A stretch of 56,723 nucleotides of DNA from Candidatus Eiseniibacteriota bacterium (GTDB lineage Bacteria > Eisenbacteria > RBG-16-71-46 > DASYSL01). Below are positions 11,435-19,295 of this stretch, piece by piece (position 1 is the stretch's first letter; each line of letters opens with the position of its first letter). Under the pieces are notes generated by a model. The model made no database searches, was not told where the DNA came from, and was given only the letters and a program-made list of their open reading frames with translations. The stretch lies in NCBI GenBank assembly GCA_035259005.1, contig DATFWU010000242.1, positions 1 to 56,723 on the forward strand, given 5' to 3'. The translations under genes and the position numbers were made by a program.

Positions 11435-13192
11435 CTAGAACTGGCTCTTCAGCGTGAGGTGCAGCTTGGCGTCGAGCGGTCCGTCGCCGCGCCCCCACCC
11501 CAGGGAAAGCCCCGCGCGGCCGACCGACGTGGGAAGCCACGCGCCGAAGCCGTAGCCCGCACGGTAACGCGTTTCCGACCCGCCCGTCGAGTCCGCGAGG
11601 TCGCCGGTCGGGTGATCGAACAGCGCCTGATCGAGGAACAGGAACACGTCGCCGTCCTTGAGCCGCCATCCGTGCTCGAGACGCAGAAGCGCGAAGCGCG
11701 AAGCGTAGAACTGGTGCTCGCGGTAACCGCGCAGGCTCTCCGAGCCGCCCAGCGGATAGAGATCGTACGTGCCCAGGTCCTGCCGGTCGGCGATGCGAAG
11801 CCCCCCGCTGAGCCCGACGCGCGCCACGCGGCGGCTCCAGGGTGCTGCGAACTGCGAGCCCAGGCCCAGCGAATAGATGCGGTCGTGGGCGGAAGCACCG
11901 GTGACGGCGTGATCACGCACGAACTCCTGCGACGTGTTGAGCTCCAGGCGCCAGGCGGCCCGGCGACCCGACGAGCCCGACGTGCGCCAGCCTTCGCTCT
12001 CCTTGCGCAGCGCGGCCCAGGTGCGCTGCCGGTTGGAGCGCTGCACGGCGCCGTGATCCGTGACCACGCGGCCGCCGCCCAGTCCCACTTCGAGCGCCAA
12101 ACCTTCGCCGGCCGTGAACTCGAAGCCCAGGTCGTAGTCCGTTCTCGTGTACTGGCTGTCCGCCAGCTGCTGCGTGAACGAGATCCCAGTGGCGATGGGC
12201 AAGCCGAAGAAGAACGGCTCCCGATACGAGAGCAGGAAGTCGGCGTTGCCCGCTCCCCGCCCCTGCCACGAAAGCTCGGCGCGGCGCGCCGTGCCGGCGA
12301 TGTTCTCGAGCTGGAGCCGCGCCGTGCCCGCAAGCGCGTGGCCCTCGCCCTGATACCCCACCACGCCATCGAACGAGCTCTGCCGGCCCTCGGCCACGTC
12401 GTAGCGCAAGCGACCGCGGCCCGGCGACGTCAGCTCGAAGCGCGGCTCGCCCACGCTCTCGAAGGTGCCCAAGTGTTGCAGCCGCGTGCGCGCCTCGTCG
12501 GCGCGGCGCGGATCGTAGGGCTCGCCTTGGAGCCCGGCGAGGGCGTGTTTGACGACGGTGGGCTTGGTGCGATGCGAGCCGTCCAGGTGCACCGAGTCGA
12601 CCACGGCCGAGTCGCCCGGAAGAACGGCAATCTCCACGTCGGCTTGGCCGTCGGCCACGCTCAGGCGCTTGACGCGCGCCTGCGCGAACGGATGGCCCGC
12701 GGCCACGAGATCGTTCACCAGGCGCGAGAGCGCCGCCGACACCTTCTCCTCCGACCACGGCTCGCCCGTGTCGAGGCCGAGCGCGCGCCGGGCCGCCAAT
12801 GAATCGGCGGCGCGCACCCCGTAGAGATCGACGCGGCCCAGGCGACAAGGCTCGCCCGCGGCCACGGTGACCGAGGCGGCCAGCTTTCCCCCCTCGTCCT
12901 CGAACGAGAGCTGGGTTACGCGAGCCCCGAGGTAGCCGCTGGCGGCCCCGGTGCGCGCCACCCCTTCGCTCAACGCCTTCCAGCGCGCCGGATCGAGCAC
13001 CGCGCCCGCTCGCCAGCCCGTCTCCTGCTCGAGACGTGTCACCGGTAGGGCGCCATCCACGCTCCATCGCACCGACGTGAGCGTACGACCCGCCACCGAC
13101 GAAAATCCGTCGGCCGCCAGCGCATGCCCCGCGCCGCTCACCCAGAGCGCCGACGCCACCAGCGTCGCCAGCAGCCAGCCTGGCCGCGCCAT
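11435..13192 (-). CDS. Omp85/BamA-family outer-membrane protein with POTRA region
   Basis: ATG at 13192 (residue 108 of the track ORF) gives the signal peptide [26 protein letters not shown]. Omp85 barrel motifs are present: [17 protein letters not shown] and [22 protein letters not shown]. The C-terminus is ...LTLKSQF. Confidence 0.8.
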
Positions 13193-16100
13193 CAGAAGTA
13201 GGTCCTCAAGCCGGCGGTGGCGCTGTGGATCAAGCGGTCGCCGCGCGGCGCGTGGCCGTTCCAGCTGAAGTCCAGGTTGGCGCGCTCGCGAATGCGATAC
13301 GAGGCGTCGATCTTGAAGTCGAACCAGTCCGGCGTGGTGGCGAAGCCGGTCGGGAAGAGCACGGGCACGGTGTCGCCGCGCACCCGGCCCCAGCGCGCGA
13401 GCCCCTCGAGTCGCGTGCGGTTCCCCACCGAATAGAAGAGGTGGGGACCAGCGCGCAGGGCCGACAGGGGCTCGGTGCCGGGAGCGCTCGCCAGGTCCCA
13501 TGACGTGATCCATCCGAGCCGCACGTTCTCATGAAGGAAGCGCGTGCCCTCGAAGGAGACACCCGACTCGCGCAGCTCGCGCGGCACCGCGATTCCTCCC
13601 GCCTGCTGCAGACCGTCGCGGCGCGCTCCATGCGTCGATCCCTCGAAGAGCCAGCGCGTGCCCGCATGCCAGCGCAGGCGGCCCTCGCCCGTCCACGCGG
13701 CGACCAGCGAGGACGCGCCCTGCAGGGCCCGGTCCGTCGTGCCGGTGCGCTCGAGACGCGTGTAGACCTCGAGCCCACCCGCGGGCTTTTCGATCTCGAT
13801 CCGGCCGAGCCAGCTGGTCTGCGTGTAGTTGGTGTCGGAAGCGCTCCTGCTCGGCAGGGCCACGAAGTCGGCGAGGCGAAGCTCGCCCTGGCGCGAGGCC
13901 GAGGACTGGGCGAGCCCCGAGACGTGGAGCGAACGCCAGCCTTGCGCGTCCCCGGCTCCGCCCCAGGGCCTGAGATCGGCGCGGTAGGACAGCCCGGCGC
14001 GCGCCACGGGCACCGCGGTCCCGGCGTTTTCTCTATCGCGCACGTCGTAATCACCCTTGCCCACGAAATTGCCGAGCGAATCGTAAGCGCCCGCGCCCGC
14101 TCCCACGTGCACGATGGAGCGCGTGCGCAGGTAGGAGAACTCGGACGTCCAGTCGGCCGAAGCTTCCTGCGACCACATGCGTCCTGGCGTCTGTTGGTGG
14201 AGTCGCGCGTAGCCGTTGTCGACCCGCCCGGGCCCTGCCGCTCCTTCCGTCCAGCGCCGGCTCGCGCCCAAGCCCCCGCTCACGCCCTGGCTAGGCGCCG
14301 CGTTCAGCGAGAAGCGCAGGTCGCGCGCCAGTCGCGGCAGTGCAAGATCGGGCGAATCGTCATGGCGCACCGAGTAGCCACCACTCCACGACCACACCCG
14401 CTTCACCCCGGAGAGTCCCGCCGTCCACGTGCGATAGGAAAGATTGGACGAGTCGGCGCGCCCCGGGATCACGCGCTCCTCGCGATCGAAGGAGAAGGAC
14501 GGACGGACGAGCGGGGTTCTCGTCCACGCCGCCTGGTAGACGATCTTGTCGCGACGGCCGTGGTCGGGGCCCTGGGCGAGCGAGTCGGGAGCGTCGTCTT
14601 GGGAAGCCACGTGGTCGATGCGGAGCTGCTGCAAGAGCGCCCCCGTCCACGACGCCGTGCCGCGCAGGCGGCGCGACGAGAATCCGTCCTCCGCGTCGAG
14701 CCTGCCGGCTTCGCCTCCCACGGCGAGGCCGCCGAGCACGTAACGGAGTGCTCCCGTCGCCACCGAGCGCCCGGTCAAAGGATCGCGCTCGTCGGTGCCC
14801 CAATCTTCCTGGAAGAACGCGCTGTCCTGGCGCGCCGGGGCGAAGAAGCGCGGATCGCGCCGATTCCAGTCCAGGTTCGCCTCGAGACGCCCGCGCGCCG
14901 CACCTCCCCAATAGAGCGTGGGCGTGGCGGCGATCGACGCCTGCCCCGCCGAGCCCTGGGTGCCGCCATCGCCCAGGTCCGACAACCGATTCGGATCGGA
15001 CGTGCTCCCCGCCACCTCGCCGCGCACCGCGAACCAGGACAAGGGCTGGTAGCTCGCCCCCCCGCCCACGATGCGGTTCTCGCTCGGCAGAGCGAGCTGG
15101 CGGCCGGCCACGAACGCACCCTGGCCGGCGCCGACGTAGCGATACGCCGCGGATCCATCGACCAGCGTCGACTCGGCGTAGGCGCCCTGCCCCTGACCCC
15201 GGCTCACGAACTGCACCTGATACGCGCCCAGGTCGCGGCCCGCGTAGGCGTAGTGCGAGCTGCCCAGGCTATCGGCGACCGCGTTGTAATCGCCGATGCC
15301 GGCCACACCGCCGGGAGCGATGGCGCGCGTCGGATCGTTGCCGGCATGGGCGAGAATCAGCCGGTCGGCTTCCGAGATGGTTCCGATCAGCGGGCGGCTG
15401 GGATCGTCGGATTCGCGGAAGCTGTGGCCGAAGAGCTTCCAGGCCCCGTGCTCGGCCTCGCCGGTCATGGCCAAGGCGGAGCGCCGGTACGCCGTGCTCG
15501 CGATCTCGTAGTCGACCGCGATGCGCGAGGCGCTCGTGATCGGGCGGCGCGAGGTGAAGGTGAGGCGGCCGCGGTCGTAGTCCATCGAGTAGTCGGCGGC
15601 CTCGCCGCGCTGCATGCGCTCGCCGTCGAGCCACACGCGCTCGCTCGACGGCACCACCGGCCGTCCCGTGGCTCCGCTCTCGTCGGGCAGGAGATAGGGA
15701 CCCTGCTTTCCTTCCTCGCCGCGGATCTCGTGGCTCGTGAACTGTCCCTTCTCGAGCGCCACCGTGGTCTGTCCCGAGAAGCCGCCGCCGTGGGCCATGG
15801 CGCGCACCCCGGTCAGCTCGCGCGTCAGCGCGGCGAAGCTTCCGCCCTGGTGGAGGAACGAGAAGTCGCCGAGCGTAGCCGAGGCGTGCGGATTGCGCAC
15901 CTCGACCAGCACGCGGTCGAGCTCGGAGAGATCGAGCGTGCCGCCGGTCTCGGTGAGGCTCGAGTTCTGGTCCGAGAGGATGGCGGTGAACTCGGTGCCG
16001 CCGCCGAGCTTGCCGGTGGTGGTCACGTCGAGGGCCTGGCGCAGGGCGGCGTCGCGCTGCGAGCCGAACTGCACCGAGACCGACTTGTTGCCCGAGAAGT

Positions 16101-19230: not shown

Positions 19231-19265
19231 GAAGCCTCGCTCTGCGGGGGGCCCGATCTAGGAAT

Positions 19266-19295
19266 AGATTAGGGCACTGGTGCGCAAACCGTCAA
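19266..19295 (-). promoter_or_regulatory. Sigma70-like promoter TTGACG-N18-TAATCT
   Basis: Minus strand: -35 at 19295..19290 and -10 at 19271..19266, 35 nt upstream of the ATG at 19230, inside the only sizeable gap of the cluster. Confidence 0.4.

What the first reader, a model, noticed from the sequence alone, without database searches (positions are those of the whole stretch)
11435..19295. Five-gene outer-membrane operon of unknown function ending in an Omp85 protein
Behind one promoter-like site (19266..19295) lie five genes spaced by 3 nt or overlapping. They are a 242-aa secreted protein ending in F, a 278-aa membrane protein, an NHL beta-propeller lipoprotein, a protein of about 1160 aa with a signal segment and an aromatic terminus (…LRTYF), and an Omp85/BamA-family protein (…KSQF). 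This is neither the canonical bamA neighbourhood nor a TamA/TamB or two-partner layout, because the large partner looks like a barrel rather than a DUF490 or TpsA-type protein. It sits directly downstream of the PorU/PorV-like module on the same strand. It may be a dedicated assembly or translocation machine.
Basis: partly seen in the sequence, partly recalled or inferred. Interest (0 to 1): 0.65.

Follow-up and report, generated by a model that had tools for sequence, protein, structure and literature searches.

The report
Giant barrel–Omp85 module linked to T9SS
Next to the type IX secretion genes porU and porV, this uncultured Eisenbacteria-like genome encodes an unannotated outer-membrane barrel about as large as the known T9SS pore SprA but half its length, plus a propeller lipoprotein and a short BamA-like protein; the set is conserved across many related phyla and may be their secretion pore, which is not proven.

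Summary
The five ORFs are real, co-directional and tightly packed. The proposed promoter is not supported, and gene 1 (242 aa) is lineage-specific.

The cluster is the distal part of a longer conserved block: porU, porV, an M6-like CTD protein, DUF5683-like protein(s), an NHL lipoprotein, a ~1160-aa barrel, a 3-POTRA Omp85, then ligA. This block recurs in Eisenbacteria, Gemmatimonadota and Zixibacteria. The NHL–barrel–Omp85 core reaches further phyla.

The large protein is modelled with confidence (pLDDT 82.7) as one β-barrel of roughly 36–38 strands. It has no Pfam or NCBIfam family. Its family has 2518 clusters at E≤1e-30 and occurs in at least 550 species. Its only annotated similarity is a weak ~50-residue match to the SprA/Sov model.

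The Omp85 is BamA-like, with three POTRA domains and 16 strands. It scores below the BamA cut-off, and no TamB or TpsA partner is present.

Best reading (about 0.45): a compact SprA-like T9SS outer-membrane channel with its lipoprotein partner and a dedicated or local Omp85 insertase. Main rival: a BAM-type biogenesis locus whose link to T9SS is only positional.

I could not test whether these genomes also carry a canonical SprA or BamA.

The parts
23970..28289 (-). PorU-type T9SS sortase (C25 peptidase with a FlgD_ig/CTD-like C-terminus). First gene of the conserved block.
   Evidence: NCBIfam NF033707 at 547 bits against a cut-off of 420. Pfam Peptidase_C25 at 8.6e-76. Found upstream of the barrel in relatives.
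22800..23912 (-). PorV/PorQ-family 14-strand outer-membrane protein (the T9SS shuttle family).
   Evidence: NF033709 PorV_fam at 186 bits against a cut-off of 90. It is below the cut-off of the PorV equivalog NF033710 (107 against 250). Pfam PorV at 1.8e-13. PorV lies upstream of the barrel in 25 of 52 loci with enough flank.
19358..22813 (-). M6-like (probably inactive) metalloprotease with FG-GAP repeats and a T9SS type-A C-terminal sorting domain. Conserved third gene of the block.
   Evidence: NF052323 at 5.6e-47 (below cut-off) and TIGR04183 Por_Secre_tail at 28.6 bits against a cut-off of 23. Present upstream in 29 of 52 loci.
19266..19295 (-). Weak and unconfirmed.
   Evidence: TTGACG-17/18 nt-CTAATCT read. 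The scan finds no site at its threshold. It lies in the 127-nt gap between the M6-like gene and P1.
18502..19230 (-). P1: a 242-aa Ser/Ala-rich secreted protein. Lineage-specific and not a core member.
   Evidence: No Pfam or NCBIfam family. A homologue was found only in L003 (6e-73). No similarity to P2-family profiles. In relatives this slot holds a second DUF5683-like paralogue.
17662..18498 (-). P2: a DUF5683-related protein with a signal peptide, an LPGxG...E...W hydrophobic hairpin and a C-terminal hydrophobic helix. Function unknown.
   Evidence: Orthologues in L001 and L002 at 5e-17 and 2e-13. 7 of 19 family members hit PF18935 DUF5683 (best 2.6e-8) and 4 of 19 hit DUF6677; the window copy itself is below threshold. 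No PDB relative. Upstream of the barrel in 36 of 67 loci, in two copies in 21 of 52.
16607..17665 (-). P3: a six-bladed NHL beta-propeller, probably a lipoprotein. The most tightly linked partner of the barrel.
   Evidence: Pfam NHL at 6.6e-31. TRIM71 NHL domain at 5e-44 in the PDB. Lipobox-like ...LGLCGC seen in the sequence. Directly upstream of the barrel in 51 of 75 loci.
13192..16680 (-). P4: a giant outer-membrane beta-barrel. It has a signal peptide, a small N-terminal beta domain (residues ~81-149 in ORF numbering), a disordered linker, then about 36-38 long strands from residue 206 to the C-terminal F. Two inserted domains sit at ~335-411 and ~445-547. Candidate SprA-like channel.
   Evidence: AF2 pLDDT 82.7 and pTM 0.73. 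No Pfam family. Weak TIGR04189 Sov/SprA match at residues 355-408 (3.1e-6), seen in 30 of 36 members. Family size: 5202, 3775 and 2518 clusters at E<=1e-3, 1e-10 and 1e-30. At least 550 species. C-terminal F invariant.
11435..13192 (-). P5: a BamA-like Omp85 with three POTRA domains and a 16-strand barrel.
   Evidence: Pfam POTRA and Omp85. AF2 model with 3 POTRA and 16 strands, pLDDT 81. The family profile aligns to BamA residues 209-664 at 9e-60, against 2e-27 for TamA. TIGR03303 is below cut-off in all 20 members. Foldseek to BamA and TamA gives TM about 0.45-0.5. Downstream of the barrel in 33 of 56 loci.

Best explanation

The first three genes are porU (sortase), porV (shuttle) and an M6-like CTD protein. 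Together they resemble the attachment part of a T9SS.

The remaining genes encode a channel unit. P4 is a single-chain barrel of about 36-38 strands. I propose it acts as a compact, nearly cap-less counterpart of the 36-strand SprA/Sov translocon: CTD-bearing cargo would enter from the periplasm and be handed to PorV.

The NHL propeller lipoprotein P3 is the most constant neighbour. I infer that it is a periplasmic partner, either gating or plugging the very wide pore or tethering it.

The DUF5683-like P2 proteins would be membrane accessories.

P5 is a BamA-like Omp85 with three POTRA domains, translationally coupled to P4. I infer that it inserts or stabilises the giant barrel.

Shown: the gene content, the barrel and Omp85 folds (predicted), the synteny and the phyletic spread.

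Inferred: the T9SS channel function, the roles of P3 and P2, and the client relation between P5 and P4.
For: 1. Linkage. The order PorU-PorV-M6-like-P2(x1-2)-NHL-P4-Omp85(-LigA) is kept even at 22-28% P4 identity, including on a 4.7-Mb and a 1.1-Mb contig. It appears in loci labelled Eisenbacteria, Gemmatimonadota and Zixibacteria. PorV is upstream in 25 of 52 informative loci and NHL in 51 of 75.

2. Fold and size. P4 is modelled with confidence as one huge barrel, with pLDDT mostly above 90 in the barrel. I count about 38 long strands in the DSSP string. SprA is a 36-strand barrel, extremely large for a single polypeptide (PMC10994853, PMC8754138). Among Foldseek hits the SprA chains give the longest alignments and the highest query-normalised TM, 0.22-0.27.

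3. Sequence similarity. The only annotated similarity of the family is to the Sov/SprA model TIGR04189. It appears in 30 of 36 members (best 1.4e-8) and maps to a conserved inserted domain.

4. Distribution. The named loci are almost all from FCB-group lineages. The literature says T9SS may be present in several of these phyla (PMC11285876), and CTD cargo is reported in one of them (PMC3534657).

5. Local cargo. CTD-type cargo genes sit in the same window.

6. Standalone copies. In Ignavibacteria the barrel gene stands alone among housekeeping genes.

7. Coupling. The P4 stop and the P5 start overlap as TGATG. The invariant C-terminal F fits a BAM-type beta-signal.

8. Precedent. T9SS genes share an operon with a BamA-like Omp85 in the P. 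gingivalis Aim operon (PMC12773653).
Against: - Homology to SprA is not established. The TIGR04189 match is about 50 residues and 24.7 bits against a cut-off of 200. It falls on a DY.IDY..G..TF motif domain that also hits phage tail families.
- Profiles of P4 and of its insert find no SprA chain in the PDB. There is no Pfam match of any kind.
- Foldseek TM-scores are low, and generic barrels rank as high by E-value.
- P4 lacks the >150 kDa extracellular cap of SprA.
- A 2025 survey states that SprA is present in all FCB phyla except Chlorobiota (PMC12611786). A canonical SprA may therefore coexist with P4, which would weaken the 'this is the pore' reading. TXSScan, in contrast, found no T9SS outside Bacteroidetes (PMC4793230).
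- In about half of the informative loci no por gene is nearby.
- In four loci NHL-P4 follows rpsB-tsf-pyrH-frr: immediately in L042, within about 0.5-0.8 kb in L059 and L064, and about 5 kb downstream in L034. These genes start the classical bamA neighbourhood, which points towards general envelope biogenesis.
Confidence: 0.45

Rival explanations
1. This is a general outer-membrane biogenesis locus. P5 is this lineage's BamA-type insertase (possibly the main one). The NHL propeller lipoprotein plays a BamB-like role on its POTRA domains. P4 is a large client or a structural outer-membrane protein with a function unrelated to T9SS. Adjacency to porU/porV would be inherited gene order.
For: - The P5 family profile aligns best to BamA POTRA3-5 plus barrel (9e-60), better than to TamA.
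- BamB is also a propeller lipoprotein (established knowledge).
- NHL-P4(-Omp85) lies within 1 kb downstream of rpsB-tsf-pyrH-frr in three loci and about 5 kb downstream in a fourth. These genes open the classical bamA neighbourhood.
- The block ends at ligA and sits among housekeeping genes.
- About half of the informative loci lack por genes nearby.
- JGI names one orthologue BamA.
Against: - Every P5 member scores below the BamA equivalog cut-off and has three rather than five POTRA domains.
- No rseP, skp or lpxD is adjacent in the window or in L001/L002.
- In L042 and in Ignavibacteria the barrel occurs without any adjacent Omp85, so barrel and Omp85 are separable.
- Supplementary Table 1 of PMC12611786 lists a BamA homologue together with BamD, BamG and BamH homologues for a Gemmatimonas, an Ignavibacterium and a Caldithrix genome. 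Whether those BamA entries are P5-type is unknown.
- This reading leaves the function of a 36-38-strand barrel unexplained.
Confidence: 0.25
2. This is a T9SS accessory but not the pore. P4, NHL and P2 work with PorU, PorV and the M6-like protein in the post-translocation sorting or attachment step, for example delivering the surface anchor or holding the attachment complex. A canonical SprA elsewhere in the genome does the translocation.
For: - The linkage is strongest to porU/porV and a CTD protein, which are the attachment-complex genes, rather than to any motor or ring gene.
- The 2025 survey reports SprA in these phyla (PMC12611786).
Against: - No known attachment-complex component is a giant barrel.
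- P4 is often present without por neighbours.
- Nothing here was tested directly.
Confidence: 0.15
3. P4 is a large diffusion or uptake channel, or an envelope-tethering barrel like the 30-strand SlpA of Deinococcus. The NHL protein would bind substrate or cell wall.
For: Foldseek lists TonB-dependent receptors, MtrB, LptD and SlpA with E-values similar to those of SprA.
Against: - There is no plug domain, TonB box, SLH domain or LptD family signature.
- TM-scores to all of these are 0.21 or lower.
- It does not explain the conserved link to porU/porV and an Omp85.
Confidence: 0.1
4. The module is a TamA/TamB-like translocation-and-assembly module or a two-partner secretion pair.
For: P5 has three POTRA domains and a TamA-like length. 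14 of 20 members hit the TamA model weakly.
Against: - No TamB/DUF490 and no TPS-domain protein is present.
- P4 is a closed-barrel type protein with a C-terminal beta-signal, not a beta-taco or an exoprotein.
- BamA similarity exceeds TamA similarity.
- A genuine TamB-TamA-like pair looks different (L083).
Confidence: 0.03

Closest known systems
SprA/Sov, the T9SS outer-membrane translocon (F. johnsoniae SprA, PDB 6H3I/6H3J/8GL8; TIGR04189)
   Same: - A single-polypeptide barrel of the same extraordinary size class: 36 strands in SprA against about 36-38 predicted here.
- Genomic association with PorV and PorU.
- Distribution in the FCB group.
- A short conserved domain that matches the SprA model.
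   Different: - Half the length (~1160 aa against ~2300-2500 aa).
- No large extracellular cap.
- Fails the family's sequence thresholds, and profile searches do not reach the SprA sequence in the PDB.
- Encoded with an NHL lipoprotein and an Omp85. This pairing was not mentioned in the SprA/T9SS papers I read.
BamA and the BAM complex (with the propeller lipoprotein BamB)
   Same: - P5 has POTRA domains, a 16-strand Omp85 barrel and an LRGY loop-6-type motif.
- It aligns to BamA POTRA3-5 plus barrel.
- A propeller lipoprotein is encoded nearby.
   Different: - Three POTRA domains rather than five.
- Below the BamA equivalog cut-off.
- No rseP, skp or lpxD context in this window.
- The propeller is a six-bladed NHL type, not an eight-bladed BamB.
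TamA/TamB translocation and assembly module
   Same: An Omp85 with three POTRA domains, about 580 aa, encoded next to a very large partner.
   Different: - The partner is an integral barrel, not a periplasm-spanning TamB/DUF490 protein.
- Gene order is partner first.
- Sequence is closer to BamA.
P. gingivalis 'Aim' operon (PGN_0296-0301: PorG, UPP synthase, BamA-like Omp85, SkpA)
   Same: T9SS components and a BamA-like Omp85 share one operon.
   Different: The partners differ (PorG, Skp, uppS). There is no giant barrel, NHL protein or porU/porV.
LptD/LptE barrel-and-lipoprotein-plug pair
   Same: A large barrel with an N-terminal periplasmic beta domain, encoded with a lipoprotein that could sit in or under the lumen.
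   Different: - No LptD or OstA family signature.
- About 38 strands against 26.
- The lipoprotein is an NHL propeller.

Membership tests
SprA/Sov T9SS translocon (TIGR04189; Pfam SprA_N) | Whole-protein match to the family model at or above its cut-off (200 bits), with a length of ~2300-2500 aa | tested here: not met
   24.7 bits, one ~50-residue stretch (residues 355-408 against profile positions 603-654 of 2319), protein 1162-1176 aa. 30 of 36 relatives give the same weak local hit.
SprA/Sov T9SS translocon (TIGR04189; Pfam SprA_N) | Pfam SprA N-terminal domain | tested here: not met
   No Pfam SprA family appears among hits at E<=1 in any of 36 family members.
SprA/Sov T9SS translocon (TIGR04189; Pfam SprA_N) | Single-chain transmembrane barrel of 36 strands | tested here: inconclusive
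   The AF2 model (pLDDT 82.7) has about 38 long strands by DSSP. No coordinates were available to count strands in the closed sheet. Foldseek TMq to SprA chains is only 0.22-0.27.
SprA/Sov T9SS translocon (TIGR04189; Pfam SprA_N) | Large extracellular cap (>150 kDa) with a lateral opening where PorV docks | tested here: not met
   Only two inserts of about 77 and 103 residues interrupt the barrel. The lateral opening and PorV docking could not be tested.
BamA (TIGR03303) | Score at or above the equivalog cut-off (297 bits) | tested here: not met
   78 bits for the window protein. All 20 orthologues are below cut-off, best E=2.1e-52.
BamA (TIGR03303) | Five POTRA domains plus a 16-strand barrel | tested here: not met
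   Three beta-alpha-alpha-beta-beta POTRA units and 16 barrel strands in the AF2 model. The profile aligns to BamA residues 209-664 only.
BamA (TIGR03303) | Sole or essential Omp85 of the genome in an rseP-bamA-skp-lpxD context | not testable with these tools
   The context is absent from the window and from L001/L002. The rest of the genome could not be searched. My attempt through P0224 reached only alphaproteobacterial BamA.
Omp85 superfamily | POTRA domain(s) plus an Omp85 barrel | tested here: met
   PF07244 at 7.5e-12 and PF01103 at 24.6 bits against a cut-off of 24. Foldseek to BamA and TamA at E about 1e-30.
TamA/TamB | Adjacent TamB (PF04357/DUF490) partner | tested here: not met
   No TamB domain in any of the five proteins or their neighbours. 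A real TamB-Omp85 pair is seen in the unrelated locus L083.
Two-partner secretion (TpsB/TpsA) | TpsB of the ShlB/FhaC type with an adjacent TPS-domain exoprotein | tested here: not met
   No ShlB or TPS-domain hit in the window proteins. The large partner is an integral barrel.
NHL-repeat six-bladed propeller | Multiple NHL repeats above the Pfam threshold | tested here: met
   PF01436 at 105 bits against a cut-off of 20. TRIM71 NHL domain at 5e-44.
DUF5683 (PF18935) | Match to the Pfam model | tested here: inconclusive
   The window P2 has no hit at E<=0.05. 7 of 19 orthologues and paralogues do, best 2.6e-8. A precomputed hit exists in L002.
T9SS PorU sortase / PorV-PorQ family (neighbours) | Scores above the NCBIfam cut-offs | tested here: met
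   PorU NF033707 at 547 against 420. PorV_fam NF033709 at 186 against 90. The PorV equivalog NF033710 at 107 is below its cut-off of 250.

The most novel reading that the evidence does not exclude
The ~1150-aa barrel family is the true outer-membrane translocon of type IX secretion in most FCB phyla outside the Bacteroidia. It would be a minimal, nearly cap-less ancestor or sister of SprA/Sov that works with PorV, is gated by an NHL propeller lipoprotein, and is built by its own three-POTRA Omp85. The 2400-aa SprA of Bacteroidia would then be a later, elaborated form.
Probability: 0.35. Interest if true: 0.85.

Novelty: new variant of a known kind. Interest (0 to 1): 0.68.

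Why it matters
Type IX secretion has been dissected almost only in Bacteroidia, where the pore is the 2400-aa SprA/Sov. Many other FCB phyla, mostly uncultured, carry CTD-tagged enzymes and PorU/PorV. The literature disagrees on whether and how they secrete them (PMC4793230 against PMC12611786 and PMC11285876).

A family with 2518 clusters at E≤1e-30, found in at least 550 species, encodes barrels as large as SprA at half the length. 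Wherever a source gives a name it is 'hypothetical protein'. These genes lie in one block with porU and porV, which makes the family a concrete candidate for the missing or alternative pore.

If correct, it gives a minimal system for asking which parts of SprA are needed for transport. It also offers a natural case of a giant barrel encoded with its own Omp85, which bears on how BAM-type machines fold barrels of more than 30 strands.

If instead the module is a BAM-type locus, it defines a new BAM composition (three-POTRA Omp85 with an NHL lipoprotein) for several phyla.

Either way, the family deserves a name and a model in Pfam or NCBIfam.

Tried and rejected
- Direct homology of P4 to SprA. 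A phmmer search and profile searches with the full family and with the conserved insert against PDB sequences found no SprA chain. Pfam scans of 36 members found no SprA_N.
- Foldseek of the P4 model against the PDB was not discriminating. TonB-dependent receptors, LptD, MtrB, SlpA and SprA all appear with TM below 0.3.
- The weak SprA-model hit lies on a motif domain that also matches phage tail families DUF2460 and TIGR02217. It cannot carry a whole-protein homology claim.
- Search for a second, canonical BamA in the lineage. The homologue search with P5 returned only 10 proteins. The 762-aa hit P0224 sits in an rseP-bamA-skp context but proved to be alphaproteobacterial, so my third and last homologue search was wasted. 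P0225 is a TamB-linked Omp85 of unknown origin.
- P1 as a degenerate DUF5683 paralogue: rejected. P2-type profiles give negative scores on P1, and BLASTP gives E=0.06.
- The first genome scan with the 45-sequence alignment failed because no stretch was conserved enough. A 10-sequence alignment worked.
- Cluster look-ups gave names only of the form 'hypothetical protein'.
- Literature searches for Eisenbacteria, Gemmatimonadota or Ignavibacteria with T9SS or SprA, and for DUF5683, found no description of this family.
- TamAB, TPS and LptDE readings were considered and rejected for lack of the defining partner or signature.
- MAG labels such as Acidobacteriota, Omnitrophota and Limnocylindrales were discounted as evidence of spread beyond the FCB group. 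Their barrel proteins are 55-93% identical to Eisenbacteria-labelled ones.

Full report
**1. Observation**

The window is about 70% G+C. Names attached to the closest homologues place it in Candidatus Eisenbacteria.

On the minus strand, five ORFs with coding-type third-position GC (0.83-0.87) fill 11435-19230. After checking junctions in the sequence the genes are:
- P1, 18502-19230 (242 aa).
- P2, 17662-18498 (278 aa), 3 nt after P1.
- P3, 16607-17665. Its GTG start overlaps the P2 stop as GTGA.
- P4, 13192-16680 (1162 aa from the ATG at 16680). It overlaps the end of P3.
- P5, 11435-13192 (585 aa). Its ATG shares one base with the P4 stop, as TGATG.

P3 has NHL repeats at E=6.6e-31, and P5 has POTRA plus Omp85 domains. 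P1, P2 and P4 have no Pfam family.

The proposed promoter is not supported. The scan finds no promoter-like site in 10500-20000. By eye the -35 is good (TTGACG) but the -10 matches only 3 of 6.

**2. Surroundings**

Upstream on the same strand are three genes:
- A PorU sortase (NF033707, 547 bits, above cut-off).
- A PorV/PorQ-family protein (NF033709, 186 bits, above cut-off).
- An M6-like protein with FG-GAP repeats and a T9SS type-A sorting domain.

Further upstream are accA and dnaE. Downstream are ligA and histidine-utilisation genes. No rseP, skp, lpxD, TamB or TPS-domain gene is present.

**3. The large protein P4**

A homologue search returned 65 relatives, mostly 1070-1240 aa. Wherever a source names them they are 'hypothetical protein'.

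A profile search of 1.84 billion cluster representatives found 5202 clusters at E<=1e-3 and 2518 at E<=1e-30. Of the best 150, 142 are about 1000-1240 aa and eight are shorter, probably partial (811-895 aa).

AlphaFold2 with a 45-sequence alignment gave pLDDT 82.7 and pTM 0.73. The model has these parts:
- A small N-terminal beta domain (residues 81-149).
- A disordered linker.
- From residue 206 to the C-terminal Phe, about 38 long antiparallel strands.
- Two inserted domains, at about 335-411 and 445-547.

I could not obtain coordinates, so the strand count (36-38) comes from the DSSP string only.

The invariant residues cluster in the first third of the barrel and in the inserts. The C-terminal F is invariant.

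Foldseek against the PDB returns only outer-membrane barrels, all with low TM. SprA chains give the longest alignments and the highest query-normalised TM (0.22-0.27), but this does not discriminate.

The only annotated sequence similarity is a weak local match to the Sov/SprA model TIGR04189. For the window protein it is 3.1e-6 at residues 355-408, and it is seen in 30 of 36 members. That segment carries a DY.IDY..G..TF motif that also matches phage tail families. Profiles do not reach the SprA sequence in the PDB.

Homology to SprA is therefore a lead, not a result.

**4. The Omp85 protein P5**

The AF2 model (pLDDT 81) shows three POTRA domains and a 16-strand barrel.

A profile of 20 orthologues aligns to BamA residues 209-664, which cover POTRA3-5 and the barrel, at 9e-60. 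TamA scores 2e-27. Every member is below the BamA equivalog cut-off. Foldseek gives BamA and TamA at TM about 0.45-0.5.

P5 is a BamA-like paralogue type with TamA-like length, but it has no TamB partner.

**5. P2, P3 and P1**

P3 is a six-bladed NHL propeller (TRIM71 NHL domain, 5e-44) with a lipobox-like LCGC.

P2 belongs to a family of which 7 of 19 members hit DUF5683. It has a signal peptide and a conserved LPGxG...E...W hydrophobic hairpin. It has no relative of known structure.

P1 has no detectable relation to P2 and occurs only in the nearest relative.

**6. Synteny and spread**

A scan of species-representative genomes found at least 550 species encoding a relative. The 80 best are labelled:
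- Eisenbacteria, Gemmatimonadota and Zixibacteria.
- Ignavibacteria and Melioribacteraceae, including cultured Rosettibacter primus.
- Calditrichia, Latescibacteria, KSB1 and Edwardsbacteria.
- Some 'Bacteroidota' MAGs.

A few odd labels (Acidobacteriota, Omnitrophota, Limnocylindrales) carry proteins 55-93% identical to Eisenbacteria ones and are probably mislabelled.

Iterative searches with the window proteins against all ORFs of the loci give three patterns:
- The full block PorU-PorV-M6-like-P2(x1-2)-NHL-P4-Omp85(-LigA), also seen on a 4.7-Mb and a 1.1-Mb contig.
- NHL-P4(-Omp85) without por genes.
- P4 alone, in Ignavibacteria, among housekeeping genes.

Counts over 81 loci with enough flank:

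| Neighbour of P4 | Loci with it / informative loci |
|---|---|
| NHL upstream | 51 / 75 |
| P2 upstream | 36 / 67 |
| PorV upstream | 25 / 52 |
| M6-like upstream | 29 / 52 |
| Omp85 downstream | 33 / 56 |
| LigA downstream | 17 / 52 |

In four loci NHL-P4 lies downstream of rpsB-tsf-pyrH-frr. It follows immediately in L042, within about 0.5-0.8 kb in L059 and L064, and about 5 kb away in L034, where lipoate and 2-oxoacid dehydrogenase genes intervene.

**7. Interpretation**

P1 is not part of the conserved unit.

The best-supported reading is that P4 is a compact SprA-like channel of the T9SS outer-membrane machinery. The NHL lipoprotein would be its constant partner, and P5 an Omp85 that inserts or stabilises it.

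Established knowledge used here comes from PMC10994853 and PMC8754138:
- SprA is a 36-strand barrel, capped outside, with a lateral opening where PorV docks.
- A Plug protein seals the idle pore.

A P. gingivalis operon also combines T9SS genes with a BamA-like Omp85 (PMC12773653).

What is shown: gene content, predicted folds, synteny and spread. [quoted passage not shown]

The main rival is a BAM-type biogenesis locus. It is supported by the BamA-like sequence of P5, the propeller lipoprotein, and the rpsB-frr context in some lineages.

A third reading keeps the module in T9SS but not as the pore.

The literature conflicts on whether canonical SprA exists in these phyla. PMC12611786 says it is present in all FCB phyla but Chlorobiota. 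PMC4793230 found no T9SS outside Bacteroidetes. I could not scan whole genomes to settle it.

**8. Novelty and score**

I found no paper or curated family describing this barrel family or the NHL-barrel-Omp85 triad.

I rate it a new variant of a known kind: a T9SS-linked outer-membrane module with a new giant barrel and a short BamA-like Omp85. Interest is 0.68. Confidence in the SprA-like channel reading is 0.45.

Noticed in passing
window 55194-56723 (-), runs off the window end: A second Peptidase_C25 protein with a FlgD_ig/CTD-like C-terminus (C25 at 8.3e-32). It could be another PorU-like sortase or a gingipain-like T9SS cargo. It is truncated by the window edge.
   Followed up: partly
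window ~40000-56723: G+C drops from about 0.70 to 0.60-0.65. The stretch holds a phage-type integrase (44217-44858), a CAAX/Rce1-like protease, a beta-lactamase-fold protein and an M23 peptidase. It may be an integrated island.
   Followed up: partly
window 19358-22813 (-) and the equivalent gene in about 29 loci: An M6-like, probably inactive metalloprotease with FG-GAP repeats and a T9SS sorting domain follows porU-porV in several phyla. Its position and its CTD suggest a structural role in the attachment complex, perhaps analogous to PorZ, rather than a cargo enzyme.
   Followed up: no
L059 5250-8169; L042 6101-8853; L034 903-3749; L064 1-1097: rpsB-tsf-pyrH-frr lies upstream of NHL-P4 in four loci: immediately in L042, within about 0.5-0.8 kb in L059 and L064, and about 5 kb away in L034. 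These genes open the classical bamA neighbourhood in Proteobacteria. That may hint at an old link between this module and envelope biogenesis.
   Followed up: partly
L006 7203-8015, L053 7167-8000, L016 3612-4583 and others; window 18502-19230: Most relatives carry two tandem DUF5683-like paralogues before the NHL gene. In this window the first slot is taken by the unrelated, lineage-specific P1.
   Followed up: yes
L021, L023, L025 (labelled Acidobacteriota, Omnitrophota, Limnocylindrales): These MAG contigs carry the Eisenbacteria-type block, with barrel proteins 55-93% identical to Eisenbacteria-labelled loci. The taxonomic labels or bins are probably wrong.
   Followed up: partly
window 33150-38255 (-): Two large secreted-type proteins lie upstream of dnaE: a 641-aa protein with a weak M23 match, and a 1048-aa S8 subtilase with FG-GAP repeats. 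They may be further T9SS cargo. No sorting domain was detected at the thresholds used.
   Followed up: no
window 985-7604 (-): Histidine-utilisation genes (hutH, hutU, a hutI-like amidohydrolase and formiminotransferase-cyclodeaminase) follow ligA. hutH and an amidohydrolase also follow ligA, after a helicase gene, in the distant locus L002.
   Followed up: no
window 38820-40535 (+): An AAA_22 ATPase fused to a C-terminal SPOR (peptidoglycan-binding) domain. This is an unusual combination, and it sits at the boundary where G+C starts to fall.
   Followed up: no
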